Shown piece after piece: positions 9,378-64,000 of a stretch of 64,000 bases of DNA. Position numbers and translations under genes: made by a program. Location of the stretch: NCBI RefSeq assembly GCF_056746865.1, contig NZ_CM163382.1; one strand, given 5' to 3'. The notes below the pieces were generated by a model. That model worked only from the letters and a program-made list of their open reading frames with translations, searched no databases and was not told where the DNA came from. The number at the start of each line of letters is the position of its first letter. The stretch's first letter is position 1.

Positions 9378-9477
9378 TGCCGGATGCGGCGTGAACGCCT
9401 TATCCGGCCTACAAAACCTTGCTAATTCAATATATTGCAGGGACTATGTAGGCCTGATAAGCATAGCGCATCAGGCA
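9378..9477. repeat. REP/BIME element (two inverted REP units)
   Basis: tgccggatgcggcgtgaacgccttatccggcctaca ... tgtaggcctgataagcatagcgcatcaggca; classic enterobacterial REP palindromes between convergent cmoB and torZ. Confidence 0.8.
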
Positions 9478-45065: not shown

Positions 45066-45126
45066 TCAGATAGCCTCAAATTCCTTATTGGGTGCCAGAA
45101 TTAACGCTGACACCCAATTTGACTTC

Positions 45127-45792
45127 TTAATGCAGGCAGCACTGCTTAAATTTCTTACCACTGCCGCACGGACAAGGATCGTTACGCCCCGGTTTCTCTT
45201 CTGCTTTGATCGGTTGCTGAACAGCTTTTTCCTGCGGATGCGCCATCCAGTATGCATGTAAATCAAGCGCCGCCAGTCGAATGGCATCTACGCTCTCTTC
45301 AAACGCTTCTGGCGACATCTTCTCTACCCGCTCGAAGTTGTCCTCAGTACCGTGCAGCGCTATCGCCTCCAGCGCTGGTTTTAACGAATCGGGCAATGTT
45401 GACCAGTCAGAAAGTGCCACGCCCCGCATATAGCCAAAGCACCACTCCTCAACAATCGTCAGCTCGCTGCCATCAACTTCTCGCAAGCCGAATAGCGGCT
45501 CAAACTGCTCCGGGAATTCGTTCAGACGCTCTGCGGTATCGGCCATATGTTGAAAGGCCAGGTTCATAAAGCGTGTCATCTCTTTCTCAGACGCCCAGCG
45601 CGGCACATAGTCAGCCCCACCCCACACGGCAACCAGCCACTGTGCCGGTTCAATCTCTTGCGGAGAACTCAACACCGCCGTCAATAAACCGTCCAGCTCC
45701 GCCACATCAAGGATGGCGTGGTCAGTGTTGTATTTGGTCAGAATATCGTCCAGCCATTCCAACTCACTTTCGTTTAACGGTCCCGTTTTCAT
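45127..45792 (-). CDS. yecA: YecA, UPF0149 protein with C-terminal SEC-C zinc motif (221 aa)
   Basis: ORF 45127..45792; C-terminal [13 protein letters not shown]. Confidence 0.92.
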
Positions 45793-45918
45793 ACGCTTTT
45801 CCTTGTGGATCTCAACTCGCCAGCACCTATCTTACATGCCGGTCCGTATCAGAGATACTTTTTGAGTGGCTTTGCCGGTGATTAAAAATTAAGGAGGGTG
45901 TAACGACAAGTTGCAGGC

Positions 45919-45941
45919 ACAAAAAAACCACCCGAAGGTGG
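45919..45941 (-). terminator. Rho-independent terminator of the glyW-cysT-leuZ tRNA operon
   Basis: Minus strand: ccacc-ttcg-ggtgg followed by U7, about 45 nt after the leuZ 3' end. Confidence 0.75.
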
Positions 45942-45986
45942 TTTCACGACACTGCTTATTGCTTTGATTTTATTCTTATCTTTCCC

Positions 45987-46073
45987 ATGGTACCCGGAGC
46001 GGGACTTGAACCCGCACAGCGCGAACGCCGAGGGATTTTAAATCCCTTGTGTCTACCGATTCCACCATCCGGG
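45987..46073 (-). tRNA. leuZ: tRNA-Leu (anticodon UAA), 87 nt
   Basis: Reverse complement matches GCCCGGATGGTGGAATCGGTAGACACAAGGGATTTAAAATCCC...GGGTACCA with encoded CCA; coordinates within about 1 nt. Confidence 0.95.
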
Positions 46074-46085
46074 CTCGGGAAGAAA

Positions 46086-46159
46086 GTGGAGGCGCGTTCC
46101 GGAGTCGAACCGGACTAGACGGATTTGCAATCCGCTACATAACCGCTTTGTTAACGCGC
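46086..46159 (-). tRNA. cysT: tRNA-Cys (anticodon GCA), 74 nt
   Basis: Reverse complement GGCGCGTTAACAAAGCGGTTATGTAGCGGATTGCAAATCCGTCTAGTCCGGTTCGACTCCGGAACGCGCCTCCA. Confidence 0.95.
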
Positions 46160-46212
46160 CAAATTCTTCAGGCCTTTCAGCCAGACATCCGCTGACGCCG
46201 ATGTCTTTTAAA

Positions 46213-46289
<77 letters not shown>

Positions 46290-46440
46290 ATTCATCAAGC
46301 AATCAGTTAATCACTTGATTTTATTATCGTCTGGCAATCAGTGCCGCCGTTCGATGCGTTGCATTCTACTTACCTGGCGCGATGAGTCAACGATATTTTT
46401 CACCACTTTTGATCGTTTGCTGAAAATTGCGCCGAAACGA

Positions 46441-46989
46441 TCACTGATCAAGCAAATCTGCACGCGCAGCGCTCAAATATTGCAACATTGACCACAGAGT
46501 CAGTACCGCAGCCACAAAGAAAAGTGCAATACCGGCGTACTCAACCCAAATGTTCGGACGCCACAGCAGCCAGGCCAACGCCACCATCTGGGCAGTGGTT
46601 TTCACTTTCCCAATCCAGGAGACAGCCACGCTACTGCGTTTACCCAACTCCGCCATCCATTCGCGTAGCGCAGAAATAATAATTTCACGGGCGATCATCG
46701 TTGCCGCCGGTAAGGTCACCCACCAGCTGTGATAATGCTCGGTTACCAGCACCATGGCGATAGCCACGAGAACTTTATCTGCTACAGGGTCAAGGAAAGC
46801 ACCAAACCGGGTACTCTGGTTCCAGCGGCGTGCCAGAAAACCATCGAACCAGTCAGTTACCGCCGCGACGCAGAAAATGAGCGCGGCGGCAAACGGCGAC
46901 CAGGTGACAGGCAGATAAAAGACCAATACAAAGAATGGGATAAGGATGACACGGAACAGTGTAAGCAACGTAGGGATATTAAATTGCAT
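46441..46989 (-). CDS. pgsA: CDP-diacylglycerol--glycerol-3-phosphate 3-phosphatidyltransferase PgsA (182 aa)
   Basis: ORF 46441..46989; CDP-alcohol phosphatidyltransferase motif ([10 protein letters not shown]...[10 protein letters not shown]). Confidence 0.96.
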
Positions 46990-47045
46990 AATGACGGGTA
47001 ACTATCTGTTGTCAGTAAGATTACCCCTATGTTGCTACAGAGACA

Positions 47046-48878
47046 TCAATGTTTCAACGACCAGAAGATCTTTTCTGCCAGACCTTGCGAAATACCCGGC
47101 ACTTTTGCAATTTCCTCGACGCTGGCGTTACGTAAACCTTGCAAACCGCCCATATATTTCAACAACATTTGCCGGCGTTTTGGCCCGACGCCTTCAATGG
47201 TTTCCAGGGAACTGGTATTTTTGACCTTCGCCCGTTTTTTACGGTGCCCGCCAATCGCGTGATCGTGTGATTCATCGCGAATATGCTGGATAACATGCAG
47301 CGCGGGAGAATCTGGCGGCAAACTGAATCCCTCACCTTCCGGCTCAAAGAACAGCGTTTCCAGCCCAGCCTTACGATCTACTCCTTTGGCAACGCCAAGT
47401 AGCAGCGGATGATTTTTATCCCATGAGACATCCAGTTCGGCGAAGACATTTTTCGCCTGCGCAAGCTGGCCTTTGCCGCCGTCGATAAGTATCACATCCG
47501 GGATCTTACTGTCGTCGATGGCTTTACCATAACGCCGACGCAGCACCTGATTCATCGCCGCATAATCATCGCCCGGCGTGATGCCAGTAATGTTATAGCG
47601 CCGATACTCCGCACGCAGCGGGCCGTTAGCATCAAACACCACACAGGAAGCGACGGTTTGTTCACCCATGGTATGGCTGATGTCAAAGCACTCCATCCGC
47701 TTCACTTCCGGCAATTTCAACACACTGGCAAGTGCTGTAAGCCGCTGGTGAACGGTAGATTGCTGCGAAAGTTTGCTGGTTAAGGCCGTCGCCGCATTGG
47801 TGCGCGCGAGTTTCAGATAACGCGCCCGATCGCCGCGAGGTTTGGTTTGAACATTAATCTTGCGTCCCGCCAGTTCTGAAAGGGAATCGGCGAGCAGCGT
47901 TTTATCGCTAAGATTAAAATCGAGCAGGATCTCACCCGGTAAGGTGCGCATCTGGCTGCCTTGTAAATAGAACTGACCTACGAAGGTTTCTACCACCTCG
48001 CTCAGTTCCGTACCGCCAGGCACTTTCGGGAAATAGCTGCGGCTGCCGAGCACTTTGCCCTGACGAATGAACAATACGTGGACACAAGCCATGCCCGCAT
48101 CGAACGCCACACCAATAACGTCGAGGTCGTCGCCGGTATTGGAAACGAATTGTTTTTCGGTGACGCGTCGCACCGCCTGAATTTGGTCGCGAATACGTGC
48201 CGCTTCTTCAAACTCCAGATTCTGGCTGGCAGTTTCCATACGACTAATGAGTTGCGTAAGCACCTGATCATCTTTGCCAGACAAAAACAGGCGCACATAC
48301 TCGACCTGCTGAGCGTATTCTTCTTCACTCACCAGTCCTTCAACGCACGGTCCCAGACAGCGCCCTATCTGATATTGCAGACACGGACGCGAGCGATTGC
48401 GATAAACACTATTTTCGCACTGGCGAATGGGGAAAATCTTTTGCAGTAGCGCCAGTGTTTCACGTACGGCATAGCCATTCGGGAACGGGCCGAAATATTC
48501 ACCTTTGGCATGCTTCGCACCACGATGCATCGCCAGACGCGGGTGGGTATCGCCACTCAGGAAGATAAAAGGATAAGATTTATCATCGCGTAGCAAAACG
48601 TTGTAACGCGGCTGATAGAGTTTGATGTAGTTGTGTTCCAGCAACAGCGCTTCGGTTTCTGTATGAGTAACCGTTACATCAATTTGCTGGATCTGGGCGA
48701 CCAGCGCTTCGGTTTTGCGCGAAGCGAGGTTGCTACGGAAATAGCTGGAAAGCCGTTTTTTCAGGTCTTTCGCTTTGCCGACATAGATAACCGTACCACC
48801 AGCATCGTACATGCGATAAACGCCTGGCTGGCTGGTTACGGTTTTTAAAAACGCTTTTGCGTCAAACTGATCACTCAC
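47046..48878 (-). CDS. uvrC: Excinuclease ABC subunit C UvrC (610 aa)
   Basis: ORF 47046..48878; GIY-YIG N-terminus ([18 protein letters not shown]). Confidence 0.97.
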
Positions 48879-49531
48879 TGACTTGATAATGTCTCCGCAT
48901 TACACAGACCATGGCGAATTGCCAGGTGAGTCAGCTCAACATCGCCATGAATGTTTAGTTTACTGAACATACGATAGCGGTAGCTGTTCACCGTTTTCGG
49001 ACTGAGATTGAGCTGTTCTGAGATCTCATTGACCTTCTGGCCCTTGGTGATCATCAGCATAATCTGCAATTCACGTTCAGACAAACTGGCAAATGGGCTT
49101 TCTGTTTTTTCTGGTTCGATCTGGCTTAACGCCATTTGTTGAGCGATGTCAGAAGCAATGTAACGCTGCCCTGAATAGACAGAACGAATCGCACTCACGA
49201 CTTCCTGCGGAGCCGCGCCTTTGCTGAGGTAGCCCGCAGCACCGGCCTGCATGACTTTCGCTGGTAAAGGGTTTTCTGTATGGACGGTAAGCATGATGAT
49301 TTTGACATCAGCTGTGGAACGCGCGATTTTACGCGTCGCCTCAAGACCGCCAATGCCCGGCATACTCATGTCCATTAGCACCACGTCAACGGCATTTGCC
49401 CGACACCACTTAACGGCGTCTTCACCGCACGATGCCTCACCGACGACTTTTATACCCTTTATATCTTCCAGAATGCGTCGTATCCCTGCGCGCACCAGTT
49501 CGTGGTCATCAACAAGTAGAACGTTGATCAA
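48875..49531 (-). CDS. uvrY: Two-component response regulator UvrY (BarA partner; 218 aa)
   Basis: ORF 48875..49531; receiver domain plus LuxR-type HTH; stop overlaps the uvrC start. Confidence 0.97.
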
Positions 49532-49989
49532 AGGAATATCTCCAGAAATAGGGATAACGCTACTGATAGTTAGTCATTCGTATATTAGCGGTTTTTATTG
49601 CAACTTTGAAACGTTAAAAATGGTGGGTATTCGATTTTTCTCTCGTTTTTGTCAATTCGATTGTCCACAGTTATGGTCACGCCCGTCACCAACGGCTTAC
49701 CGGATCGTTTCACAGTAAGCCCTGCGACGAAATGTGACAAAAATTACCTTTATTCAGCAAAAATGAAAATCAGCCCGCTGAATATGTAACATTAATTAAC
49801 CCGAACAATACGGGCAAAAAACATTCATGATAAAAATATTTATTGGTCATTATATTAACGCATTTAATAGCACCGTTGACGATACGCTCAAAAAACAACC
49901 ACTGCTATTTTTAGCAAAGCTTATGGTATACTCCGCCGCCTTAACATTTTTCACCGCAAATTTTCATTGCAACATGACGAGGAAAATAA

Positions 49990-50214
49990 ATGAGTACGCC
50001 TGATTTTTCTACTGCCGAGAATAATCAAGAACTGGCAAATGAAGTCTCCTGCCTGAAAGCGATGCTGACGCTGATGCTGCAGGCGATGGGACAAGCTGAC
50101 GCGGGCCGCGTGATGTTAAAGATGGAAAAACAGCTTGCGCTGATCGAAGACGAAACCCAGGCTGCAGTATTTTCCAAAACGGTTAAGCAAATTAAACAAG
50201 CCTACCGTCAGTAA
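49990..50214 (+). CDS. yecF: DUF2594 family protein YecF (74 aa)
   Basis: ORF 49990..50214. Confidence 0.85.
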
Positions 50215-50217
50215 TAT

Positions 50218-50255
50218 AAAACCGGCTGATAGCGTGCCTTTCAGCCGGTTTTTGC
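50218..50255 (+). terminator. Rho-independent terminator between convergent yecF and sdiA
   Basis: aaaccggctga-N12-tcagccggttt followed by TT. Confidence 0.7.
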
Positions 50256-50281
50256 ATCTGGCACGCAGGACAGAAAAGAGA

Positions 50282-51004
50282 TCAAATTAAGCCAGTAGCG
50301 GCCGCGTAACAGGCAACCTGGGTCTTATTCGGTGCATTGATTTTTTTCTGCATGTTTTTCTGATGGAAATTGACCGTATTCTCAGAGATTGACAAAATCA
50401 TCGCTATCTCTGCTGATGTCTTCCCTTCCGCCGTCCATTTCAAAATTTCTTTTTCGCGCTTGCTGAAATTCATCTCTGGCGTCATCACTATTTCATCATT
50501 TAAACGCATCAGAGCCATCAGACTTTCGCGCACCAGTAACTGCATTTTTAATTGCAGTTCATCACTAAGAATGGGTATTTCGCGCGCGCTGCTACGGGAA
50601 AAGGACAAAAAGCCCAGCGCCCGGTTTGGCAGCATTAAATACTGAGTGACACCGCGGCGTAAACCATGTGCGCGCGCGGCTTCCCATAACGGCTGTGCTT
50701 CGCTGAATAAGTCATCATTCCACATTAAATGGCCCTGACTAAAGTTTTCAGGGTTCAGCACCGGATCAATTGCGAGAAAGTTTTTTGCCTGATAATAACT
50801 AACCCACGCCTCAGGGTAATTGGTGTAGAAAGCCACTTTAGGTCGCGTGAATGGTACCGGGTGGCGAACACATAACGAATAGTAATCGTACTCCAGCTGC
50901 TGAGCCTGAAGCTCTATTTCATGGTAGACCTCTTCTGCGGCCTCCATCCTCTGAAAACGCAACAGCATCGTGCGACGCCAGCTGAAAAAATCCGTATCCT
51001 GCAT
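50282..51004 (-). CDS. sdiA: LuxR-family quorum-sensing (AHL-responsive) regulator SdiA (240 aa)
   Basis: ORF 50282..51016; start set at MQDTDFFSWRRTMLLRFQ. Confidence 0.95.
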   Translation of the reverse strand: MQDTDFFSWRRTMLLRFQRMEAAEEVYHEIELQAQQLEYDYYSLCVRHPVPFTRPKVAFYTNYPEAWVSYYQAKNFLAIDPVLNPENFSQGHLMWNDDLFSEAQPLWEAARAHGLRRGVTQYLMLPNRALGFLSFSRSSAREIPILSDELQLKMQLLVRESLMALMRLNDEIVMTPEMNFSKREKEILKWTAEGKTSAEIAMILSISENTVNFHQKNMQKKINAPNKTQVACYAAATGLI

Positions 51005-51233
51005 AGTAAACCGCAACGCCCCTGAGAGTGAGTATCATTTATAATGATAATTCAAACTATCACATAAATAAGATTTATATATAATTTATATTATTCAGGC
51101 AATGAATTACTTTTGCAAGCCATCGCATTCTCTTATGTTATTAATGAGTTATGCTGATTTGTTAAGCTGTTTTATCACGCTTGAAATGGCGTCCCGCCCC
51201 GACAGGTGAATCGTCGGGGCTGATTTTTTCTTA

Positions 51234-51986
51234 TTATTGCAGCAGAAACTTCTCGAGGAACTGGCGGGTGCGAGGCTGCTGGGGATCGGCAAATAACGCT
51301 TTTGCTGCCCCCTGCTCGACTATCCGCCCCTGGTCCATAAAAATCGCCCGGTCCGCAACATCCCGGGCAAAGCTCATTTCGTGCGTCACAATCACCATCG
51401 TGCGCTTTTCCTGCGCCAGCTGACGGATGGTGTTCAGGACTTCGCCCACCAGCTCTGGATCCAGCGCCGACGTTGGCTCGTCAAACAAAATCACCTCAGG
51501 ACGCATTGCCAGCGCACGTGCAATCGCAACACGTTGCTGTTGACCGCCAGACAAACGACGTGGATAGCTGGTTTCTTTACCGGCCAGCCCAACTTTCGCC
51601 AACAGCTCGCGAGCGCGCGCCGTGGCCTCTTCTTTCGGTTCGCCTTTGACGATCACCGGCCCTTCAATAATGTTTTCCAGCACCGTACGATGCGGAAACA
51701 AATTAAAGTTCTGGAAGACAAACCCGACGTGCTGACGCAACTGGCGAATCAGCGATTTTTGCTGACTTAATGAACGTGCAGTATCAATAGTGATATCGCC
51801 AACGGTGATAGTTCCCGCTTCCGGTTGTTCCAGCAGATTTATGCTGCGTAGCAACGTGGTTTTGCCGGAACCACTCGGACCGATAATTGCCACCACTTCG
51901 CCAGGCTTTACCTCAAGGTCGATACCGTGCAGCACCGTCTGACCGTGAAATTTTTTCACCAGGTTCTTAACTTCAATGGCACTCAT
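51234..51986 (-). CDS. tcyN: L-cystine ABC transporter ATP-binding protein TcyN (YecC; 250 aa)
   Basis: ORF 51234..51986; Walker A GPSGSGKTT, signature LSGGQQQR. Confidence 0.94.
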   Translation of the reverse strand: MSAIEVKNLVKKFHGQTVLHGIDLEVKPGEVVAIIGPSGSGKTTLLRSINLLEQPEAGTITVGDITIDTARSLSQQKSLIRQLRQHVGFVFQNFNLFPHRTVLENIIEGPVIVKGEPKEEATARARELLAKVGLAGKETSYPRRLSGGQQQRVAIARALAMRPEVILFDEPTSALDPELVGEVLNTIRQLAQEKRTMVIVTHEMSFARDVADRAIFMDQGRIVEQGAAKALFADPQQPRTRQFLEKFLLQ

Positions 51987-52651
51987 TTTGGTTCTCTCTC
52001 CTGGCGATTAAGTTGATTCTCAAAATGGTTCTGCAACGTCGATAATACTGTCGCCATGATCCAGTAGATGAGCGAAGCCGCCAGGTACATGGTGAACACC
52101 TCCAGCGTGCGCGAGGTAATCAACTGCGCCTGACGGAACAGCTCCGGCACCTGGATTGTCGCGGCCAGCGACGTATCTTTTACCAGGCTGATAAAGCTGT
52201 TCGACAGCGGCGGCAACGCCACCCGCGCCGCCTGTGGCAAAATCGCGCGACGCATGGTCTGCCACGGCGTCATACCAATACTGGCAGCTGCTTCCCACTG
52301 ACCTTTATCAATAGAAGAAATGGCGGCGCGAAGCGTTTCGGCAGCATAGGCGGCAGTGTTGAGCGACAGACCAATCATTGCTGACGGAATGGGATCTAAT
52401 TCGATACCAAACTGCGGCAGGCCGTAATAAATCATAAACAGTTGTGCGATGAGCGGCGTACCACGAAAAATAGAGATATAAAAACGCGCCAGCCAGCGCA
52501 CGGGCCAGATCGGCGACAGGCGCATCAGCGCGAGAATAAACCCGAGCAGTAAGCCAAAAAACATGCCGCCGATACTGAGTTGCAGCGTATACCCAGCACC
52601 TTTCAGCAGGAACGGCAAGGAATCAATAACCAGTTGTATACTTTCTTGCAT
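51983..52651 (-). CDS. tcyL: L-cystine ABC transporter permease TcyL (YecS; 222 aa)
   Basis: ORF 51983..52651; overlaps the tcyN start. Confidence 0.94.
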   Translation of the reverse strand: MQESIQLVIDSLPFLLKGAGYTLQLSIGGMFFGLLLGFILALMRLSPIWPVRWLARFYISIFRGTPLIAQLFMIYYGLPQFGIELDPIPSAMIGLSLNTAAYAAETLRAAISSIDKGQWEAAASIGMTPWQTMRRAILPQAARVALPPLSNSFISLVKDTSLAATIQVPELFRQAQLITSRTLEVFTMYLAASLIYWIMATVLSTLQNHFENQLNRQEREPK

Positions 52652-52665
52652 GAGCGTTTCCGGAG

Positions 52666-54557
<1,892 letters not shown>

Positions 54558-54644
54558 ATTCACCCCGAATGTTGTTATGTCTGTTTGCAGTGTAGAGCCA
54601 TTGTTTGTAAACACAAAAACAACTCCGCTACATCTTATTCTTAT

Positions 54645-55196
54645 TTAATATATATCAGAAGCAGGCAGGCTGGAGGATTTCTGCACAAGTCCGGTACAGG
54701 TTTGGCGCTGATAGTGTTGATACTTCCGTAATGCGATGCGGTAATTGTTGGTGCTGGTGGTGGGCAGCCACGGGGCGAGGATTTCATCAAGGAAACCGTC
54801 CTGCAGCTGATCGAGGGAAATATTTTGCTCGTGTAGATGATTACCCAAACGGCGCAGACGAACGACATATTCACGCACCGTACCTGGGCTCATTTCAGTT
54901 TGCTCAAAAAGAAATTGCTTAAAGCCGATAATATCGAAAAAATCACTCTGCGTTTTGCAGTGTAAATCACCGCAAAATCGGCACAATGCCGCCCATGACT
55001 GTTGTTCCACTTGCCAGCCATTTTCATCAAGCAGCGTGTCCAGGCGGGTAATCTCGATTTTATTCACTATTTTGCCGTCGCGAACTAAGGTAATGCGATC
55101 GAGTAATTTACGGCAATGCGCGCAATGGGTCTGGCTGTGTTTAAAGTCTTTAAGATAGCGGCTTAATGGCCGTCTTTTCAGGTGCTGCACCATCAT
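54645..55196 (-). CDS. fliZ: Flagellar/RpoS-antagonist regulator FliZ (183 aa)
   Basis: ORF 54645..55232; start set at MMVQHLKRRPLSRYLKDF. Confidence 0.93.
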   Translation of the reverse strand: MMVQHLKRRPLSRYLKDFKHSQTHCAHCRKLLDRITLVRDGKIVNKIEITRLDTLLDENGWQVEQQSWAALCRFCGDLHCKTQSDFFDIIGFKQFLFEQTEMSPGTVREYVVRLRRLGNHLHEQNISLDQLQDGFLDEILAPWLPTTSTNNYRIALRKYQHYQRQTCTGLVQKSSSLPASDIY

Positions 55197-55241
55197 TAAG
55201 AACTCCTGGTAGTCAAAGTTAAAATGCGGCATTTACTGACG

Positions 55242-55961
55242 TTATAACTTACCCAGTTTAGTGCGTAACCGTTTAATGGCCTGGCTGTGTAACTGACTGA
55301 CCCGCGATTCCCCGACCTCCAGCACTGCACCAATCTCTTTGAGATTCAGCTCTTCCTGGTAATAGAGGGTTAATACCAGTTTTTCGCGCTCCGGCAACAT
55401 TTCGATGGCTTCCATCACCCGCTGGCGCAGATTACTGTCCAGCAGTTGTTGTAGCGGGTTTTCTCGCTGATGATCATCAGTAACCAGTTCGATGCTATCG
55501 CCGTGCTCTTCGCGCCACTCATCGTAGGAGAAGAGCTGGCTGTTATTGGTGTCGAGCAACATTTGGCGATAATCGGCTATATCGATCCCTAAACGTTCCG
55601 CTACCTCAGTTTCCGTGGCGTTGCGGCCAAGTTCCTGCTCCAGTTGCCCTATTGCCTGTGCCACTTCACGCGCGTTGCGTCGCACGCTGCGCGGCACCCA
55701 GTCACGGCTGCGAAGTTCATCCAGCATAGCGCCACGGATACGCTGCACTGCGTAAGTTGTAAATGCCGTTCCTTGTAGGGCGTCATAGCGTTCGACGGCA
55801 TTAAGTAACCCAATGCCGCCCGCCTGTAGCAGATCGTCAAGTTCCACGCTCGCGGGCAGTCGAACCTGCAGGCGCAATGCTTCGTGACGCACCAGCGGGA
55901 CATAACGCTGCCACAGCGAGTGTTTATCCATTACACCTTCAGCGGTATAGAGTGAATTCAC
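55242..55961 (-). CDS. fliA: Flagellar sigma factor FliA (sigma-28; 239 aa)
   Basis: ORF 55242..55961; sigma-70 family regions 2 and 4. Confidence 0.97.
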   Translation of the reverse strand: MNSLYTAEGVMDKHSLWQRYVPLVRHEALRLQVRLPASVELDDLLQAGGIGLLNAVERYDALQGTAFTTYAVQRIRGAMLDELRSRDWVPRSVRRNAREVAQAIGQLEQELGRNATETEVAERLGIDIADYRQMLLDTNNSQLFSYDEWREEHGDSIELVTDDHQRENPLQQLLDSNLRQRVMEAIEMLPEREKLVLTLYYQEELNLKEIGAVLEVGESRVSQLHSQAIKRLRTKLGKL

Positions 55962-56083
55962 GATAAACAGCCCTGCGTTATATGAGTTATCGGCATGATT
56001 ATCCGTTTCTGCAGGGTTTTTAATCGGACGATTAGTGGGTGAAATGAGGGGTTATTTGGGGGTTACCGGTAAATTTCATGCAG

Positions 56084-56106
56084 AAAAAACCCCGCCGGTG
56101 GCGGGG
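56084..56106 (-). terminator. Rho-independent terminator of fliC
   Basis: Minus strand: ccccgcc-acc-ggcgggg followed by U6; lies after the REP element in the fliC 3' UTR. Confidence 0.7.
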
Positions 56107-56137
56107 AAGCACCTTGCTGACAAATTGCGCTTTATGT

Positions 56138-56238
56138 TGCCGGATGCGGCGTAAACGCCTTATCTGGCCTACAAAAATGTGCAAATTCAATAAATTGCAA
56201 TTCAACTTGTAGGCCTGATAAGCGCAGCGCATCAGGCA
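56138..56238. repeat. REP/BIME element (two inverted REP units) in the fliC-fliA intergenic region
   Basis: tgccggatgcggcgtaaacgccttatctggcctaca ... tgtaggcctgataagcgcagcgcatcaggca. Confidence 0.8.
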
Positions 56239-56280
56239 ATTTGGCGTTGCCGTCAGTCTCAGTTAATCAGGTTACAACGA

Positions 56281-57624
56281 TTAACCCTGCAGCAGAGACA
56301 GAACCTGCTGCGGTACCTGGTTAGCTTTAGACAGCACAGAGTTACCCGCCTGCTGGATGATCTGCGCTTTCGACATGTTGGACACTTCGGTCGCATAGTC
56401 GGCGTCCTGAATACGGGACTGCGCTTCAGACAGGTTGGTGGTGGTGTTATTCAGGTTGGTGACCGCAGAATCCAGACGGTTTTGTACGGCACCGAGGGAG
56501 GAGCGGAAAGTATCAACTTGCGAGATAGCTTTGTCTAAAAGTGCCAGCGGATCGTTGGTTGCAGTACCAGAAAATGTTGCTGTTGCCGCTGTTTTTACAG
56601 AACCATCAACATCGAGTTCATCGGTAAGTTGGATTTTTGTGTCTTCATTTGTTGCAGCGTCACCACCGTTTTCAATTGCATCCTTACCGTCTGCACCAGC
56701 AAGGTAATCTTTGCCTTGAATAGTAACATAGCCAACAGCCGCGCCAGCACTATTCGTCGTGACCTTGATAGGCTGACCTGTCTGTGTTGCTGTGGTAACA
56801 CCGTTCGCAGGATCAGTGAAAGTAACATTGGTGGTATTAAGCGTAACAACGCCACCAGCATTAACGGAAGCCGAATAGAAGTCATTACCAGATTGAACAA
56901 CATAGGTTCCTGTCGCTTTACCATCCGCGCTTTGTACGTTATGTAGGGACAAGCCTGATGTATCACTTATTCCCAATGTTTTAGCCATTGCGGCAGCAGC
57001 GGTATCGTTCGCACCAAATTTAACCGTAACCGGGGCATCGCCAGCATTAGCACCAGGAACTGTAGTTATCGCATCGCTAACTTTTAATGCGTTCCCTGAT
57101 ACCGAGAAACCTTTCAATCCCAGCGTTGAAGAATCAATTTTCTGCAAATCGATAGAGATGGTCTGCCCGTCATTCGCGCCAACCTGAATCTTCATCGAAC
57201 CGTCTTTCGCCAGCACGTTCACGCCGTTGAACTGGGTCTGACCGGAAACGCGGTCAATTTCGTCGAGACGGGATTTGATTTCGTCCTGAATGGAGTCCAG
57301 ATCCGAATCAGAGTTAGTCCCGGTAGAAGCCTGAACCGTCAGTTCACGAATACGCTGTAAGTTGTTGTTGATTTCGGACAGCGCGCCTTCAGTGGTCTGT
57401 GCAACAGAAATACCGTCGTTGGCGTTACGTGCAGCCTGAGTCAGGCCTTTAATGTTAGAAGTAAAACGGTTAGCAATCGCCTGACCTGCGGCGTCATCCT
57501 TCGCGCTGTTAATACGCAAGCCAGAAGACAGACGCTCGATAGAACTCGACAGCGCAGACTGGTTCTTGTTGATATTATTTTGAGTGATCAGCGAGAGGCT
57601 GTTGGTATTAATGACTTGTGCCAT
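56281..57624 (-). CDS. fliC: Flagellin FliC (447 aa); conserved N/C termini with a central variable (H-antigen) domain that is not K-12 H48
   Basis: ORF 56281..57624; MAQVINTNSLSLITQNNINKNQSALSSSIERLSSGLRINSAKDDAAGQAIANRF... and C-terminal ...QVPQQVLSLLQG; length 447 aa versus 498 aa for K-12. Confidence 0.97.
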   Translation of the reverse strand: MAQVINTNSLSLITQNNINKNQSALSSSIERLSSGLRINSAKDDAAGQAIANRFTSNIKGLTQAARNANDGISVAQTTEGALSEINNNLQRIRELTVQASTGTNSDSDLDSIQDEIKSRLDEIDRVSGQTQFNGVNVLAKDGSMKIQVGANDGQTISIDLQKIDSSTLGLKGFSVSGNALKVSDAITTVPGANAGDAPVTVKFGANDTAAAAMAKTLGISDTSGLSLHNVQSADGKATGTYVVQSGNDFYSASVNAGGVVTLNTTNVTFTDPANGVTTATQTGQPIKVTTNSAGAAVGYVTIQGKDYLAGADGKDAIENGGDAATNEDTKIQLTDELDVDGSVKTAATATFSGTATNDPLALLDKAISQVDTFRSSLGAVQNRLDSAVTNLNNTTTNLSEAQSRIQDADYATEVSNMSKAQIIQQAGNSVLSKANQVPQQVLSLLQG

Positions 57625-57700
57625 GATTCGTTATCCTATATTGCAAGTCGTTGATTACGTATTGGGTTTCCACCCGTCGGCTCAATCGCCGTCAACCCTG

Positions 57701-57727
57701 TTATCGTCTGTCGTAAAACAACCTTTA
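57701..57727 (-). promoter_or_regulatory. Sigma-28 class 3 promoter of fliC
   Basis: Minus strand TAAAGGTT-N11-GACGATAA, about 75 nt upstream of the fliC start. Confidence 0.85.
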
Positions 57728-57819
57728 GAATTTTTTTCACAAACAGCCATTTTTTGTTAGTCGCCGAAATACTCTTTTCTCTGCCCCTTATTCCCGCTAT
57801 TAAAAAAAACAATTAAACG

Positions 57820-57846
57820 TAAACTTTGCGCAATTCAGGCCGATAA
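57820..57846 (+). promoter_or_regulatory. Sigma-28 promoter of fliDST
   Basis: TAAACTTT-N11-GCCGATAA, 44 nt upstream of the fliD start. Confidence 0.85.
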
Positions 57847-57889
57847 CCCCGGTATTCGTTTTACGTGTCGAAAGATAAAAGGAAATCGC

Positions 57890-59296
57890 ATGGCAAGTAT
57901 TTCATCGCTGGGAGTCGGGTCAGGTCTGGATTTAAGTTCAATCCTTGATAGCCTCACCGCCGCGCAAAAAGCGACGCTAACCCCTATTTCAAATCAGCAA
58001 TCGTCGTTTACCGCTAAACTTAGCGCCTACGGTACGCTGAAAAGCGCGCTGACGACTTTCCAGACCGCCAATACTGCATTGTCTAAAGCCGATCTTTTTT
58101 CCGCCACCAGCACTACCAGCAGCACCACCGCGTTCAGTGCCACCACCGCGGGTAACGCCATCGCCGGGAAATACACCATCAGTGTCACCCATCTGGCGCA
58201 GGCGCAAACCCTGACCACGCGCACCACCAGAGACGATACGAAAACGGCGATCGCCACCAGCGACAGTAAACTCACCATTCAACAAGGCGGCGACAAAGAT
58301 CCGATTACCATTGATATCAGCGCGGCTAACTCGTCGTTAAGCGGGATCCGTGATGCCATCAACAATGCAAAAGCAGGCGTAAGCGCAAGCATCATTAACG
58401 TGGGTAACGGTGAATATCGTCTGTCAGTCACATCAAATGACACCGGCCTTGATAATGCGATGACACTCTCGGTCAGCGGTGATGATGCGCTACAAAGTTT
58501 TATGGGCTATGACGCCAGTGCCAGCAGCAACGGTATGGAAGTCTCGGTCGCCGCCCAGAATGCGCAGCTGACGGTCAACAACGTCGCCATTGAGAACAGC
58601 AGCAACACCATCAGCGACGCGCTGGAAAACATCACCCTGAACCTGAACGATGTCACCACGGGCAACCAGACGCTAACCATCACTCAGGACACCTCCAAAG
58701 CGCAAACAGCGATTAAAGACTGGGTGAATGCTTATAACTCGCTAATAGATACCTTCAGCAGCCTGACCAAATACACCGCCGTAGATGCGGGAGCTGATAG
58801 CCAGAGTTCTAGCAATGGCGCACTGCTCGGCGACTCCACGTTGCGGACGATTCAGACGCAGTTGAAGTCGATGCTGAGTAATACCGTCAGTTCTTCCAAC
58901 TATAAAACGCTGGCGCAGATTGGTATCACGACCGATCCCAGCGATGGCAAACTGGAACTGGATGCCGACAAACTCACCGCTGCACTGAAAAAAGATGCCA
59001 GCGGCGTAGGTGCATTGATTGTTGGCGATGGTAAAAAAACCGGCATCACGACCACCATCGGCAGCAACCTGACCAGTTGGCTTTCGACAACGGGCATTAT
59101 TAAAGCCGCTACCGATGGCGTTAGTAAGACCCTGAATAAATTAACTAAAGACTACAACGCCGCCAGCGATCGCATTGATGCGCAGGTCGCGCGCTATAAA
59201 GAACAATTTACCCAACTGGACGTTTTAATGACCTCGTTAAACAGCACCAGCAGCTACTTAACGCAGCAGTTCGAAAACAACAGTAATTCCAAGTAA
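57890..59296 (+). CDS. fliD: Flagellar filament cap protein FliD (468 aa)
   Basis: ORF 57890..59296. Confidence 0.96.
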   Translation: MASISSLGVGSGLDLSSILDSLTAAQKATLTPISNQQSSFTAKLSAYGTLKSALTTFQTANTALSKADLFSATSTTSSTTAFSATTAGNAIAGKYTISVTHLAQAQTLTTRTTRDDTKTAIATSDSKLTIQQGGDKDPITIDISAANSSLSGIRDAINNAKAGVSASIINVGNGEYRLSVTSNDTGLDNAMTLSVSGDDALQSFMGYDASASSNGMEVSVAAQNAQLTVNNVAIENSSNTISDALENITLNLNDVTTGNQTLTITQDTSKAQTAIKDWVNAYNSLIDTFSSLTKYTAVDAGADSQSSSNGALLGDSTLRTIQTQLKSMLSNTVSSSNYKTLAQIGITTDPSDGKLELDADKLTAALKKDASGVGALIVGDGKKTGITTTIGSNLTSWLSTTGIIKAATDGVSKTLNKLTKDYNAASDRIDAQVARYKEQFTQLDVLMTSLNSTSSYLTQQFENNSNSK

Positions 59297-59320
59297 TCAA
59301 TATTCATCGGGAGACAGGTC

Positions 59321-59731
59321 ATGTACGCGGCAAAAGGCACCCAGGCCTATGCACAAATTGGCGTCGAAAGCGCCGTAATGAGCGCCAGCCAGCAGCAGCT
59401 GGTCACCATGCTATTTGATGGAGTGCTAAGCGCACTGGTTAGAGCGCGCCTGTTTATGCAGGACAACAATCAGCAAGGCAAAGGCGTCTCTTTGTCAAAA
59501 GCGATCAACATCATTGAGAACGGACTGCGGGTGAGTCTTGATGAAGAGAGCAAAGACGAACTAACCCAAAACTTGATTGCTCTTTATAGCTATATGGTCA
59601 GGCGTTTGCTGCAAGCCAATTTACGCAACGATGTCTCCGCAGTCGAAGAAGTGGAAGCATTAATGCGCAATATTGCCGATGCCTGGAAAGAGTCGTTACT
59701 CTCCCCTTCTTTGATTCAGGACCCAGTCTGA
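59321..59731 (+). CDS. fliS: Flagellin-specific chaperone FliS (136 aa)
   Basis: ORF 59321..59731. Confidence 0.96.
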
Positions 59732-60096
59732 TGAACCACGCACCGCATTTGTATTTCGCCTGGCAACAACTCGTCGAAAAAAGCCAGCTCATGTTACGCC
59801 TGGCAACAGAAGAACAATGGGACGAACTCATCGCCAGCGAGATGGCGTATGTGAATGCGGTGCAGGAGATTGCACATCTGACTGAAGAGATTGACCCGTC
59901 CACCACGATGCAGGAGCAGCTCCGCCCGATGCTGCGCCTGATTCTCGACAACGAAAGCAAGGTAAAGCAGTTATTACAGATTCGGATGGATGAACTGGCG
60001 AAACTGGTCGGTCAGTCATCGGTGCAAAAATCGGTGTTAAGTGCCTATGGCGATCAGGGCGGCTTTGTGCTGGCTCCGCAGGATAACCTCTTTTGA
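59731..60096 (+). CDS. fliT: FliD chaperone / anti-FlhDC factor FliT (121 aa)
   Basis: ORF 59731..60096; start overlaps the fliS stop. Confidence 0.95.
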
Positions 60097-60173
60097 ATCT
60101 GAACGAGTCGATGGCTCGCGAATAATCCGATTACGGCTACGCTTCTAATGTTCCCCTTGAATGGAGTCGAAGA

Positions 60174-61661
60174 ATGCGTAATCCCACGCTGTTACAATGT
60201 TTTCACTGGTATTACCCGGAAGGCGGTAAGCTCTGGCCTGAACTGGCCGAGCGCGCCGACGGTTTTAATGATATTGGTATCAATATGGTCTGGTTGCCGC
60301 CCGCCTATAAAGGCGCATCGGGCGGGTATTCGGTCGGCTACGACTCCTATGATTTATTTGATTTAGGCGAGTTTGATCAGAAAGGCAGCATCCCCACTAA
60401 ATATGGCGATAAAGCACAACTGCTGGCCGCCATTGATGCTCTGAAACGTAATGACATTGCGGTGCTGTTGGACGTGGTAGTCAACCACAAAATGGGCGCG
60501 GATGAAAAAGAAGCTATTCGCGTGCAGCGTGTAAATGCTGATGACCGTACGCAAATTGACGAAGAAATCATTGAGTGTGAAGGCTGGACGCGTTACACCT
60601 TCCCCGCTCGTGCCGGGCAATACTCGCAGTTTATCTGGGATTTCAAATGTTTTAGCGGTATCGACCATATCGAAAACCCTGATGAAGATGGCATATTTAA
60701 AATTGTTAACGACTACACCGGCGAAGGCTGGAACGATCAGGTTGATGATGAATTAGGTAATTTCGATTATCTGATGGGCGAGAATATCGATTTCCGCAAT
60801 CATGCCGTGACGGAAGAGATTAAATACTGGGCGCGCTGGGTGATGGAACAAACGCAATGCGACGGTTTTCGTCTTGATGCGGTCAAACATATACCGGCAT
60901 GGTTTTATAAAGAGTGGATCGAACACGTACAAGAAGTTGCGCCAAAGCCGCTGTTTATTGTGGCGGAATACTGGTCGCATGAAGTTGATAAGCTGCAAAC
61001 GTATATTGATCAGGTGGAAGGCAAAACCATGCTGTTTGATGCGCCGCTGCAGATGAAATTCCATGAAGCATCGCGCATGGGGCGCGACTACGACATGACG
61101 CAGATTTTCACGGGTACATTAGTGGAAGCCGATCCTTTCCACGCCGTGACGCTCGTTGCCAATCACGACACCCAACCGTTGCAAGCCCTCGAAGCGCCGG
61201 TCGAACCGTGGTTTAAACCGCTGGCGTATGCTCTAATTTTGTTGCGGGAAAATGGCGTTCCTTCGGTGTTCTATCCGGACCTCTACGGTGCGCATTACGA
61301 AGATGTCGGTGGTGACGGGCAAACCTATCCAATAGATATGCCAATAATCGAACAGCTTGATGAGTTAATTCTCGCCCGTCAGCGTTTCGCCCACGGTGTA
61401 CAGACGTTATTTTTCGACCATCCGAACTGCATTGCCTTTAGCCGCAGTGGCACCGACGAATATCCCGGCTGCGTGGTGGTCATGTCGAACGGGGATGATG
61501 GCGAAAAAACCATTCATCTGGGAGAGAATTACGGCAATAAAACCTGGCGTGATTTTCTGGGGAACCGGCAAGAGAGCGTAGTAACCGACGAAAACGGCGA
61601 AGCGACCTTCTTTTGCAACGGCGGCAGCGTCAGCGTGTGGGTTATCGAAGAGGTGATTTAA
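60174..61661 (+). CDS. amyA: Cytoplasmic alpha-amylase AmyA (495 aa)
   Basis: ORF 60174..61661; GH13 motifs ([15 protein letters not shown]). Confidence 0.96.
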
Positions 61662-61694
61662 ATTCATCCCCGGCGGCAAGCCGGGGAGATTTCA

Positions 61695-62108
61695 TTACGG
61701 CAGTGGCGTCGGTAACGGCGCTTTATCCAGCGCAGCGGCACACTCTGCCGTCGGGCGATCCACACGCTCCATCGTCATACCATCGTACTCAATGGTGTTA
61801 CCGTCACGCTCAACCTCGTACAGCTCACGTTTTACGGTAACGTTAGTGAGATCATCTGACATCAATGTCAACTTGCCCGGCACGGCAATCACCCGCTGCC
61901 ACTGACGGCAATCCAGGGTATCGCCCTCTTTAGTGACAATCAGGCTGCCTATCGCTTCCGGACTGACCAGCGCACGTTGCGGCCCTTTGGTCTGCCAGTA
62001 GCCCGCCAGCCAGTCCGGCGCGGGGGTTTTCACGACATTGTTATAGTTTTCGACTTCGGCACAGCCCGCCAGCAACATGAGCGCGCCTGCAATTGCGAGT
62101 TTTTTCAT
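61695..62108 (-). CDS. yedD: Lipoprotein YedD (137 aa)
   Basis: ORF 61695..62111 (MMKKLAIAGALMLLAGC...); lipobox LAGC. Confidence 0.9.
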   Translation of the reverse strand: MKKLAIAGALMLLAGCAEVENYNNVVKTPAPDWLAGYWQTKGPQRALVSPEAIGSLIVTKEGDTLDCRQWQRVIAVPGKLTLMSDDLTNVTVKRELYEVERDGNTIEYDGMTMERVDRPTAECAAALDKAPLPTPLP

Positions 62109-62294
62109 CATTCGTCCTGCATGAGAAGAAAAGAGGATTGTGGCATTAAAGCCCTGATGTCGCCAGCCTTTCCAGGTTCAGAGAGAAATTTGATCTAACT
62201 ATTATTTTTGTGAATTATTACCCCGAAAATAAATTTGCATGATGTATGATTCGCGACTCTTGTTTCAAACCTTCTGAGTTCAGAGGCTACATTC

Positions 62295-63500
62295 ATGTCA
62301 TGGCAGCAATTCAAACACGCCTGGTTGATTAAATTCTGGGCACCCATCCCTGCGGTCATCGCGGCGGGTATTCTCTCCACTTACTATTTTGGCATTACTG
62401 GCACCTTTTGGGCTGTCACGGGTGAATTTACCCGTTGGGGCGGCCAGCTCCTGCAGCTGTTTGGCGTCCATGCTGAAGAGTGGGGTTATTTTAAAATTAT
62501 CCATCTGGAAGGATCGCCATTAACCCGCATCGACGGGATGATGATCATCGGCATGTTTGGCGGCTGCTTTGCCGCAGCGCTGTGGGCCAACAATGTCAAA
62601 CTGCGCATGCCACGCAGCCGTATCCGCATTATGCAGGCCATTATTGGCGGTATTATCGCTGGTTTTGGCGCGCGTCTGGCAATGGGCTGTAACCTGGCGG
62701 CGTTCTTTACCGGTATTCCTCAGTTCTCGCTGCATGCCTGGTTCTTTGCCATCGCCACTGCCATTGGTTCATGGTTTGGCGCACGCTTTACCCTGCTGCC
62801 CATCTTCCGTATTCCCGTGAAAATGCAGAAAGTTTCTGCCGCCTCACCGCTGACGCAAAAACCGGATCAGGCGCGGCGTCGTTTTCGTCTCGGGATGCTG
62901 GTCTTTTTCGGTATGCTGGGCTGGGCGCTGCTCACGGCGATGAACCAACCAAAACTGGGGCTGGCAATGCTGTTTGGCGTCGGCTTTGGTTTACTGATTG
63001 AACGTGCGCAAATCTGCTTTACTTCGGCGTTCCGCGATATGTGGATCACCGGACGTACCCATATGGCGAAAGCAATCATTATCGGTATGGCGGTGAGTGC
63101 CATCGGGATCTTCAGTTACGTACAGTTAGGCGTTGAACCCAAAATCATGTGGGCGGGACCAAACGCGGTAATTGGTGGTTTACTGTTTGGTTTTGGCATC
63201 GTGCTGGCAGGCGGCTGCGAAACCGGTTGGATGTACCGCGCGGTAGAAGGTCAGGTGCACTACTGGTGGGTCGGTCTGGGCAATGTGATCGGCTCAACCA
63301 TTCTGGCGTATTACTGGGATGATTTCGCTCCGGCGCTGGCCACCGACTGGGACAAAATCAACCTGCTGAAAACCTTTGGCCCGATGGGTGGCCTGCTGGT
63401 GACATATTTGCTGTTGTTTACTGCGCTGATGTTGATTATCGGCTGGGAAAAACGCTTCTTCCGCCGTGCGGCACCGCAGACTGCAAAGGAAATCGCATGA
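62295..63500 (+). CDS. yedE: YedE/YeeE family inner membrane transporter (putative selenium/thiosulfate uptake; 401 aa)
   Basis: ORF 62295..63500; polytopic membrane protein. Confidence 0.93.
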   Translation: MSWQQFKHAWLIKFWAPIPAVIAAGILSTYYFGITGTFWAVTGEFTRWGGQLLQLFGVHAEEWGYFKIIHLEGSPLTRIDGMMIIGMFGGCFAAALWANNVKLRMPRSRIRIMQAIIGGIIAGFGARLAMGCNLAAFFTGIPQFSLHAWFFAIATAIGSWFGARFTLLPIFRIPVKMQKVSAASPLTQKPDQARRRFRLGMLVFFGMLGWALLTAMNQPKLGLAMLFGVGFGLLIERAQICFTSAFRDMWITGRTHMAKAIIIGMAVSAIGIFSYVQLGVEPKIMWAGPNAVIGGLLFGFGIVLAGGCETGWMYRAVEGQVHYWWVGLGNVIGSTILAYYWDDFAPALATDWDKINLLKTFGPMGGLLVTYLLLFTALMLIIGWEKRFFRRAAPQTAKEIA

Positions 63501-63730
63501 AAAATATCATTCCTGATTACCGTCTTGATATGGTGGGTGAACCCTGCCCTTATCCGGCAGTCGCAACCCTTGAGGCGATGCCGCAGTTAAAAAAAGGTGA
63601 GATCCTGGAAGTGGTGAGCGACTGTCCGCAGTCGATCAATAATATTCCACTGGATGCTCGTAATCACGGCTATACGGTGCTGGATATTCAGCAAGACGGG
63701 CCGACCATTCGTTATTTAATTCAGAAGTAA
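63497..63730 (+). CDS. yedF: TusA-like sulfurtransferase-fold protein YedF (77 aa)
   Basis: ORF 63497..63730; CPxP motif (GEPCPYP); start overlaps the yedE stop. Confidence 0.93.
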   Translation: MKNIIPDYRLDMVGEPCPYPAVATLEAMPQLKKGEILEVVSDCPQSINNIPLDARNHGYTVLDIQQDGPTIRYLIQK

Positions 63731-63838
63731 TCCCTCATTCCCGCTGTGGCCAACAGCGGGAATATCGTTGCCTCTGTACCACATAGATTTTACCCGCCCC
63801 CTCTCCTATTCTTTTCAGTGTGCTCTCAGGAGGTTGCT

Positions 63839-64000
63839 ATGTGTGGACGCTTTGCCCAATCCCAAACGCGTGAAGATTACCTTGCGCTTCTCGCGGAAGA
63901 TATTGAACGCGATATTCCCTATGATCCCGAACCCATTGGCAGATACAACGTCGCGCCGGGAACCAAAGTTCTTCTGCTCAGTGAACGTGATGAACACCTT
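63839..64000 (+). CDS. yedK: SOS-response-associated peptidase (SRAP) YedK, N-terminal fragment (continues beyond window end)
   Basis: ATG at 63839 preceded by AGGAGG; translation MCGRFAQSQTREDYLALLAEDIERD... with catalytic Cys2. Confidence 0.85.
   Translation, partial: MCGRFAQSQTREDYLALLAEDIERDIPYDPEPIGRYNVAPGTKVLLLSERDEHL

What the first reader, a model, noticed from the sequence alone, without database searches (positions are those of the whole stretch)
56281..57624. fliC encodes a non-K-12 flagellin: 447 aa with a distinct central hypervariable domain
The N-terminal (about 175 aa) and C-terminal (about 100 aa) segments match the K-12 flagellin almost exactly, but the central segment (roughly nt 56580-57100) is unrelated to H48 as I recall it, and the protein is about 50 residues shorter (447 vs 498 aa). 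Every other gene in the window looks K-12-like, so this is a classic mosaic H-antigen allele under diversifying selection and recombination. It is the most strain-specific sequence in the window.
Basis: partly seen in the sequence, partly recalled or inferred. Interest (0 to 1): 0.45.

Follow-up and report, generated by a model that had tools for sequence, protein, structure and literature searches.

The report
Known flagellin allele: fliC H52
The gene is an intact E. coli flagellin carrying the already catalogued but rare H52 surface antigen, swapped into a K-12-like chromosome by a ~1.25 kb recombination; this is ordinary serotype biology, not a new feature.

Summary
Window 56281-57624 (-) is an intact 447-aa flagellin gene. 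Its ends are 92-94% identical in protein to K-12 FliC (H48, 498 aa). Its centre (546 nt, window 56561-57106) is the only block of the 64 kb that does not align to K-12.

It is not a new allele. The protein is identical to UniProt Q842A8. A published panel of 53 H-type primer pairs types it as H52: primers and probe match with 0 mismatches, and every other type has 6 or more.

H52 is rare, found in 11 of 5,426 complete E. coli genomes. Its nearest E. coli relative is H25 (~55% identity in the centre), against ~31% for H48.

Against a near-isogenic H26 strain, differences are packed into 56076-57328, with almost none on either side. This marks a ~1.25 kb cassette exchange, with one breakpoint at fliC codon ~100 and the other in the fliC-fliA spacer.

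The same cassette occurs in Escherichia ruysiae at 95-96% identity, while flanking core genes are 89-92%. That indicates transfer between species.

dN/dS in the centre is 0.2-0.4, so positive selection is not shown.

The predicted outer domain is confident but has no close solved homologue.

Verdict: real, correctly read, already known. Low interest.

The parts
56281..57624 (-). fliC coding sequence, H52 allele (447 aa plus stop)
   Evidence: ORF found. Pfam Flagellin_N and Flagellin_C. The protein is identical to UniProt Q842A8 and found on 444 contigs. H52 primers and probe match with 0 mismatches.
57115..57624 (-). Codons 1-170: conserved N-terminal D0/D1 region (helices 7-40, 45-100, 106-128 and a beta-hairpin at 137-159 in the model)
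   Evidence: 159/170 residues identical to K-12. Secondary structure from the model. dN/dS is about 0.05.
56545..57114 (-). Codons 171-360: hypervariable central (outer, surface-exposed) domain that defines H52. The block that does not align to K-12 at the DNA level is 56561-57106.
   Evidence: Identity is 54-56% to H25, 31% to H48 and 23% to H26. The domain model has pLDDT 88.6.
56281..56544 (-). Codons 361-447 plus stop: conserved C-terminal D1/D0 helices
   Evidence: 80/87 residues identical to K-12. Pfam Flagellin_C at 361-445.
56758..56925 (-). In-silico H52 typing amplicon (168 bp). Forward primer is gene nt 700-719, probe 777-812, reverse primer 849-867.
   Evidence: Oligos from PMC11529414 Table S8-5. 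All three match exactly, in the correct order and orientation.
56076..57328 (.). Exchanged tract relative to the near-isogenic H26 strain EM18-18-42, running from the fliC-fliA spacer to fliC codon ~100
   Evidence: 3 differences in 44613-56075, dense differences in 56076-57328, and none in 57329-58731. FliA, FliZ, FliD and FliS protein accessions are identical in both backgrounds.
55962..56280 (-). fliC 3' UTR and fliC-fliA spacer: an inverted pair of REP-like repeats, an intrinsic terminator at 56106-56090, then the fliA promoter region. It corresponds to the K-12 FliX sRNA region.
   Evidence: K-12 annotation, terminator scan, four-way alignment, and an Rfam ES036 hit at 56175-56216.
57701..57727 (-). 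Sigma-28 (FliA) class 3 promoter of fliC: TAAAGGTT-N11-GACGATAA
   Evidence: Read directly from the sequence. There are no differences from K-12 between 57491 and 57739. The consensus TAAAGTTT-N11-GCCGATAA is from established knowledge.
57890..59296 (+). fliD (filament cap), divergently transcribed neighbour, not part of the swapped tract
   Evidence: The protein accession matches the H26 strain.
55242..55961 (-). fliA (sigma-28), downstream neighbour, outside the swapped tract

Best explanation
This is the fliC gene of an E. coli strain with a phylogroup-A-like, K-12-like backbone, identical over 24 kb to strain F11. It encodes the flagellar filament protein of the established serological type H52.

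The conserved N- and C-terminal helices (D0/D1) carry out export, chaperone binding, polymerisation into the filament core and TLR5 recognition. This step is inferred from established flagellin biology.

The ~190-residue centre folds into a beta-rich outer domain on the filament surface that carries the H52 epitopes. The fold is predicted here; the serology is inferred.

The allele sits in this chromosome because homologous recombination replaced a ~1.25 kb cassette, with crossovers in the conserved 5' part of fliC (about codon 100) and in the fliC-fliA spacer. This is shown by comparison with a near-isogenic H26 strain.

The same cassette circulates in Escherichia ruysiae, so it moves across species boundaries within the genus.
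For: - **Intact flagellin.** The ORF is intact with both flagellin Pfam domains. The whole-chain model matches Salmonella and E. coli flagellin structures.
- **H52 assignment.** H52-F, H52-R and the H52 probe match with 0 mismatches in the proper arrangement. The 52 other H-type primer pairs have 6 or more mismatches. The panel types the controls correctly: K-12 as H48, EM18-18-42 as H26, and the 1332-bp alleles as H25.
- **Already in databases.** The protein equals UniProt Q842A8. The literature lists the H52 reference strain C2187-69 as AY250028.1.
- **Rarity.** 11 of 5,426 complete genomes carry it. The next best centre match is 66-69% identical.
- **Recombination tract.** Differences from the H26 strain are dense in 56076-57328 and near zero on both sides.
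- **Synonymous divergence from K-12.** dS is 0.19 in codons 1-100 and 2.6 in the centre.
- **Sharing between species.** fliC nt 300-1200 is 95-96% identical to E. ruysiae, while core flanks are 89-92%. dS is 0.08 in the centre and 0.21-0.52 in the ends. E. ruysiae is reported as often 'H52-like' (PMC10434276).
- **General mechanism.** Hu & Reeves describe serotype switching by recombination with ends in the conserved regions (PMC7018530).
- **Expression signals.** The sigma-28 promoter and terminator are conserved.
Against: - No serology or expression data are available. The H52 assignment is genotypic.
- The mapping of Q842A8 to AY250028 is inferred rather than looked up.
- The donor and direction of the exchange cannot be determined from pairwise comparisons.
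- Motility depends on flagellar genes outside the window.
Confidence: 0.95

Rival explanations
1. It is a novel, uncatalogued H type (a new hypervariable-region form).
For: PGAP names it only 'FliC/FljB family flagellin', whereas K-12's gets 'H48 family'. The centre alone has no sequence hit in the PDB. It is rare among complete genomes.
Against: It matches the published H52 primers and probe exactly. It is identical to the older UniProt accession Q842A8 and is seen on 444 contigs. H52-like alleles are already reported in E. ruysiae.
Confidence: 0.02
2. It is a derivative of the K-12 H48 allele that lost ~50 codons by internal deletion and then drifted.
For: It is 51 residues shorter than H48, with the same ends.
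Against: The centre does not align to K-12 at the DNA level over all 546 nt. Protein identity there is ~31% and dS is saturated at 2.6. Even the conserved ends are only 88-89% identical in DNA. The centre is collinear with H25, not with H48.
Confidence: 0.01
3. The centre diverged in place by point mutation under positive (diversifying) selection, rather than arriving by recombination.
For: dN/dS is higher in the centre (0.2-0.4) than in the ends, which are <=0.06 for the same-form H52 and H25 comparisons and 0.06-0.16 against K-12 H48. Host immunity and phages plausibly select on the exposed domain (established knowledge).
Against: The boundaries against a near-isogenic strain are sharp. dN/dS is below 1 in every comparison. 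The centre is more similar between species than the flanks are. This pattern fits cassette exchange among old, pre-existing forms. Selection may still favour switching between forms.
Confidence: 0.1
4. The gene is silent or non-functional in this strain: a non-motile strain, or flagellin expressed from another locus such as flk, fll or flm.
For: None in the window. Alternative flagellin loci exist in some E. coli (established knowledge; the primer panel lists flkA, fllA and flmA types).
Against: The ORF is intact. The sigma-28 promoter shows no differences from K-12 across 57491-57739 and the terminator stem is conserved. flhDC, mot/che, flhBAE, fliAZ and fliDST are all intact in the window.
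Confidence: 0.05

Closest known systems
E. coli flagellar antigen H52 (fliC-H52; reference strain C2187-69, GenBank AY250028.1)
   Same: Typing primers and probe match exactly. The protein is identical to the database entry Q842A8. It is 447 aa and sits at the fliC locus between fliD and fliA.
   Different: No difference was detected. Within the 90% cluster, a second H52 sub-family differs at six N-terminal residues (27, 74, 78, 92, 100, 110) and at D328A. This is consistent with a different 5' crossover.
E. coli H25 flagellin (1332 bp, 443 aa; PMC4441469)
   Same: It is the nearest other E. coli type. The centre is collinear, differing by only 4 residues in length, and 54-56% identical. Shared motifs include SLHN...DGKAT..YVVQSG.DFY.ASV and QGK.Y.AG. 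It probably has the same outer-domain fold.
   Different: DNA identity in the centre is only 66-69% over part of it. dS is saturated at about 1.6-1.8. The H25 primers have 8 mismatches in total. It is a separate serotype.
E. coli K-12 H48 flagellin (498 aa; filament structure 8cxm)
   Same: The D0/D1 ends are 92-94% identical in protein. The locus, promoter and 3' UTR architecture are the same.
   Different: The centre is ~31% identical and 51 residues longer in H48, and it does not align at the DNA level.
Salmonella Typhimurium FliC D2/D3 outer domains (1ucu, 1io1)
   Same: These are the only solved structures with detectable fold similarity to the modelled H52 centre: Foldseek E 6e-4 to 5e-3, ~24% identity over ~130 columns.
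Escherichia ruysiae 'H52-like' flagellins (PMC10434276)
   Same: The length is the same (447 aa). Protein identity is 95.5%. The centre has dS of only 0.08.
   Different: There are 19-20 amino-acid changes, 13 of them in the centre. The flanking genome is 8-11% divergent and fliD is 23-29% divergent.

Membership tests
Bacterial flagellin (FliC/FljB family) | N-terminal Flagellin_N and C-terminal Flagellin_C helical domains | tested here: met
   PF00669 at residues 5-140 scores 159 bits (cutoff 26.6). PF00700 at 361-445 scores 109 bits (cutoff 23). The model has long helices at 7-128 and 359-446.
Bacterial flagellin (FliC/FljB family) | Located at the fliC locus, divergent from fliDST and upstream of fliAZ, with a sigma-28 promoter | tested here: met
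   Gene order. TAAAGGTT-N11-GACGATAA at 57727-57701.
Bacterial flagellin (FliC/FljB family) | Polymerises into a functional filament | not testable with these tools
   Needs a motility assay or electron microscopy.
E. coli H52 antigen type | Sequence match to H52-specific typing targets and to no other H type | tested here: met
   H52 forward primer, reverse primer and probe have 0 mismatches and give a 168-bp amplicon. The other 52 pairs have 6 or more mismatches. Controls type correctly.
E. coli H52 antigen type | At least 97% identity and coverage to the reference allele AY250028 | tested here: inconclusive
The protein is identical to UniProt Q842A8, which I infer, but could not verify, derives from that submission.
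E. coli H52 antigen type | Agglutination by anti-H52 serum | not testable with these tools
   This is a serological test.
E. coli H48 (K-12) antigen type | H48-type central region | tested here: not met
   H48 primers have 8 and 7 mismatches. The centre does not align at the DNA level.
E. coli H25 antigen type | 1332-bp gene matching the H25 primers and probes | tested here: not met
   The gene is 1344 bp. H25 primers have 3 and 5 mismatches. The PMC4441469 H25 oligos have 9, 3 and 8 mismatches.

The most novel reading that the evidence does not exclude
Probability: 0.15. Interest if true: 0.3.

Novelty: already known. Interest (0 to 1): 0.1.

Why it matters
It gives the strain's H serotype (H52), which is useful for epidemiological typing. 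The carrier genomes include multidrug-resistant isolates from humans, chicken meat, a dog and wastewater.

It is also a clean textbook example of serotype switching by a ~1.25 kb cassette exchange with a breakpoint inside fliC, and of the same cassette being shared between E. coli and E. ruysiae.

It opens no new question. E. coli H-antigen diversity, its mosaic structure and its horizontal transfer have been documented for decades.

Tried and rejected
**Literature look-ups that led nowhere**
- Wang et al. 2003 (PMC154406) and Banjo et al. 2018 (PMC5971530), sought for reference allele lengths and primers, are not held.
- A full-text search for 'Q842A8' found nothing.
- I looked for published serotypes of the carrier strains EC6563 and EC17CM13. 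The papers give none.
- The MS-H paper lists an H52 reference strain but no peptides.

**Rejected identification**
- I first guessed H25 from motif similarity. This was rejected: H25 is 1332 bp and its primers mismatch.

**Searches with limited yield**
- The search for homologous proteins with the centre returned only 21 mostly partial hits, and neither the H52 cluster nor H25. This reflects the word-index limit.
- phmmer of the centre against the PDB gave noise only.
- The whole-chain model has low-confidence D0/D1 packing (pTM 0.46), so global TM-scores are uninformative.
- My first sigma-28 pattern used the wrong spacer length and found nothing. The promoter was then read directly from the sequence.

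Full report
**1. Observation**

The ORF listing shows an ATG-initiated ORF of 447 aa at 56281..57624 on the minus strand. It lies between fliA (55242-55961, -) and fliD (57890-59296, +). Pfam finds Flagellin_N at residues 5-140 (E 9e-47) and Flagellin_C at 361-445 (E 1e-31). phmmer against the PDB finds flagellins from E. coli and Salmonella, with E-values down to 1e-141.

I fetched the K-12 MG1655 fli region, where FliC is 498 aa. A pairwise alignment and a six-way alignment give these identities to K-12:
- residues 1-170: 159/170
- residues 361-447: 80/87
- residues 171-360: 59 of 171 aligned positions, with many gaps

**2. The rest of the window**

blastn of all 64 kb against K-12 1,940,001-2,012,000 gives three collinear blocks:

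| Window | K-12 | Identity |
|---|---|---|
| 1-33456 | 1,945,051-1,978,507 | 99.25% |
| 33444-56560 | 1,979,271-2,002,389 | 98.8% |
| 57107-64000 | 2,003,089-2,009,982 | 97.7% |

- The break near 33.4 kb is the IS1H upstream of flhDC, which K-12 MG1655 has and the window lacks.
- The only window sequence with no K-12 counterpart is 56561-57106 (546 nt here, 699 nt in K-12).
- SNP density against K-12 is blocky. It is ~0 per kb at 3-8 and 24-42 kb, and 12-25 per kb from 42 kb to the end. The region around fliC is K-12-like, not K-12.
- Within fliC, the 'conserved' ends are only ~88-89% identical in DNA.
- The window is 100% identical over 40000-64000 to strain F11, CP184143.1. All genes in that strain's annotation of window 1-50000 are ordinary and intact.

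**3. Which allele is it**

megablast of the gene against 5,426 complete E. coli genomes finds full-length matches at 99% or above in only 11. The centre alone, searched in distant mode, finds the same 11 and then nothing better than 66-69% over part of it.

An exact-sequence look-up shows the protein is already in public databases. It is UniProt Q842A8_ECOLX / WP_021499262.1, seen on 444 contigs. Its 90% cluster also contains E. ruysiae and Escherichia sp. members.

The classic reference papers are not held. I therefore took the 53 H-type primer pairs of the MeltArray assay (PMC11529414, Table S8-5) and matched them in silico:
- H52-F (gene nt 700), the H52 probe (nt 777) and H52-R (nt 849) all match with 0 mismatches, in the right order and orientation.
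- The next best pairs are H56 (6 mismatches) and H25 (8).
- Controls behave correctly: K-12 types as H48, EM18-18-42 as H26, and three 1332-bp alleles as H25.

The literature lists the H52 reference strain C2187-69 with GenBank AY250028.1 (PMC4753304). The allele is therefore fliC-H52, one of the 53 recognised E. coli H antigens.

**4. Relatives of the centre**

- The 147 genomes with weak centre matches fall into three groups. One member of each group was fetched (L006, L007, L008). All three are 1332 bp and type as H25, matching the published H25 length (PMC4441469).
- H52 and H25 centres are collinear and 54-56% identical. H48 is at 31% and H26 at 23%.
- Outside E. coli, a centre-only protein search finds E. 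albertii at 65%, and Enterobacter hormaechei, Pantoea piersonii and metagenomic flagellins at 44-58%.

**5. How it got there**

Strain EM18-18-42 (H26, 557-aa flagellin) has the same FliA, FliZ, FliD and FliS protein accessions as H52 strains. Aligning it to the window shows:
- only 3 differences in 44613-56075;
- dense differences from 56076 to 57328;
- none from 57329 to 58731.

The exchanged tract is therefore ~1.25 kb. One crossover lies inside fliC at about codon 100. The other lies in the fliC-fliA spacer, near the terminator and REP elements.

Consistent with this, a second H52 sub-family in the cluster differs from ours mainly at residues 27-110.

This is the mechanism Hu & Reeves describe: serotype switching by recombination with ends in the conserved C1/C2 regions (PMC7018530).

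**6. Sharing between species**

I fetched E. ruysiae contigs encoding the 95.5%-identical protein P0003. Identity to the window along the locus is:
- core flanks: 89-92%
- fliD: 71-77%
- first 300 nt of fliC: 89%
- fliC nt 300-1200: 95-96%

Nei-Gojobori estimates give dS of 0.08 in the centre, against 0.52, 0.26 and 0.21 in codons 1-100, 101-170 and 361-447. The centre is thus the most recently shared part of the locus. E. ruysiae clade III is reported as often 'H52-like' (PMC10434276).

**7. Selection**

dN/dS in the centre is 0.39 (against E. ruysiae H52), 0.21-0.24 (against H25) and 0.27 (against H48). In the ends it is <=0.06 for the H52 and H25 comparisons and 0.06-0.16 against K-12 H48. 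Constraint is relaxed in the centre, but gene-region averages give no evidence of dN/dS above 1. 'Diversifying selection' is plausible at the level of switching between forms, but it is not shown here.

**8. Structure and function**

- The full-length model has the expected long terminal helices, but only moderate confidence (pLDDT 70, pTM 0.46). The centre is confident. Its best PDB matches are Salmonella FliC and E. coli H7 filaments.
- Residues 165-362, modelled alone with 15 homologues, give pLDDT 88.6 and pTM 0.82. The domain is beta-rich with one helix.
- By sequence, the centre hits nothing solved.
- By established flagellin biology, the ends build the filament core and are recognised by TLR5 and FliS, and the centre is the exposed antigenic surface. 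The TLR5-site motif LQRIRELTVQ is retained (sequence; interpretation from knowledge).
- Expression signals are intact. The sigma-28 promoter TAAAGGTT-N11-GACGATAA lies at 57727-57701, and a terminator lies at 56106-56090.

**9. Verdict**

The feature is the known H52 flagellin allele in a K-12-like backbone. Novelty: already known. Interest is low. The only mildly new points are the precise 1.25-kb exchange tract, the quantitative evidence that E. coli and E. ruysiae share the cassette, and the lack of a solved homologue for the H52/H25 outer domain.

Noticed in passing
window 33444-33456: The IS1H element that K-12 MG1655 carries upstream of flhDC is absent here. The two K-12 alignment blocks abut, with a 13-bp overlap that probably includes the target-site duplication.
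   Followed up: partly
window 1-64000: Divergence from K-12 is blocky. It is ~0 SNPs per kb at 3-8 kb and 24-42 kb, but 12-34 per kb at 1-3, 9-14 and 42-64 kb. This looks like an ordinary core-genome recombination mosaic. The fliC swap sits inside a larger block of 22 kb or more that is not K-12.
   Followed up: partly
window 56175-56216 and 9413-9455: Rfam ES036 (CssrF) hits sit just above the gathering score. The one in the fliC 3' UTR overlaps an inverted pair of REP-like repeats, so both are probably REP matches rather than sRNA genes. The fliC 3' UTR corresponds to the K-12 FliX sRNA region.
   Followed up: partly
L010:4340-5755 vs window 57890-59296: fliD of E. ruysiae is only 71-77% identical to the window's fliD, while other flanking genes are ~90%. 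The filament cap gene is also unusually divergent between the species.
   Followed up: no
L009/L010:10152-13344: In E. ruysiae a very large ORF (1323 aa or more, no Pfam hit) lies downstream of tcyJ, where E. coli has dcyD.
   Followed up: no
[not shown]
   Followed up: yes
window 24463-25172 and 26164-26873: tap and tar cross-match at 71.6% identity over 711 nt. This is the known paralogy of the chemoreceptor signalling domains.
   Followed up: no
protein cluster of P0001: One member of the H52 90% cluster, with a single amino-acid difference (A192V), is labelled Kluyvera georgiana in UniRef. This is either a mislabelled assembly or a further transfer between genera.
   Followed up: no
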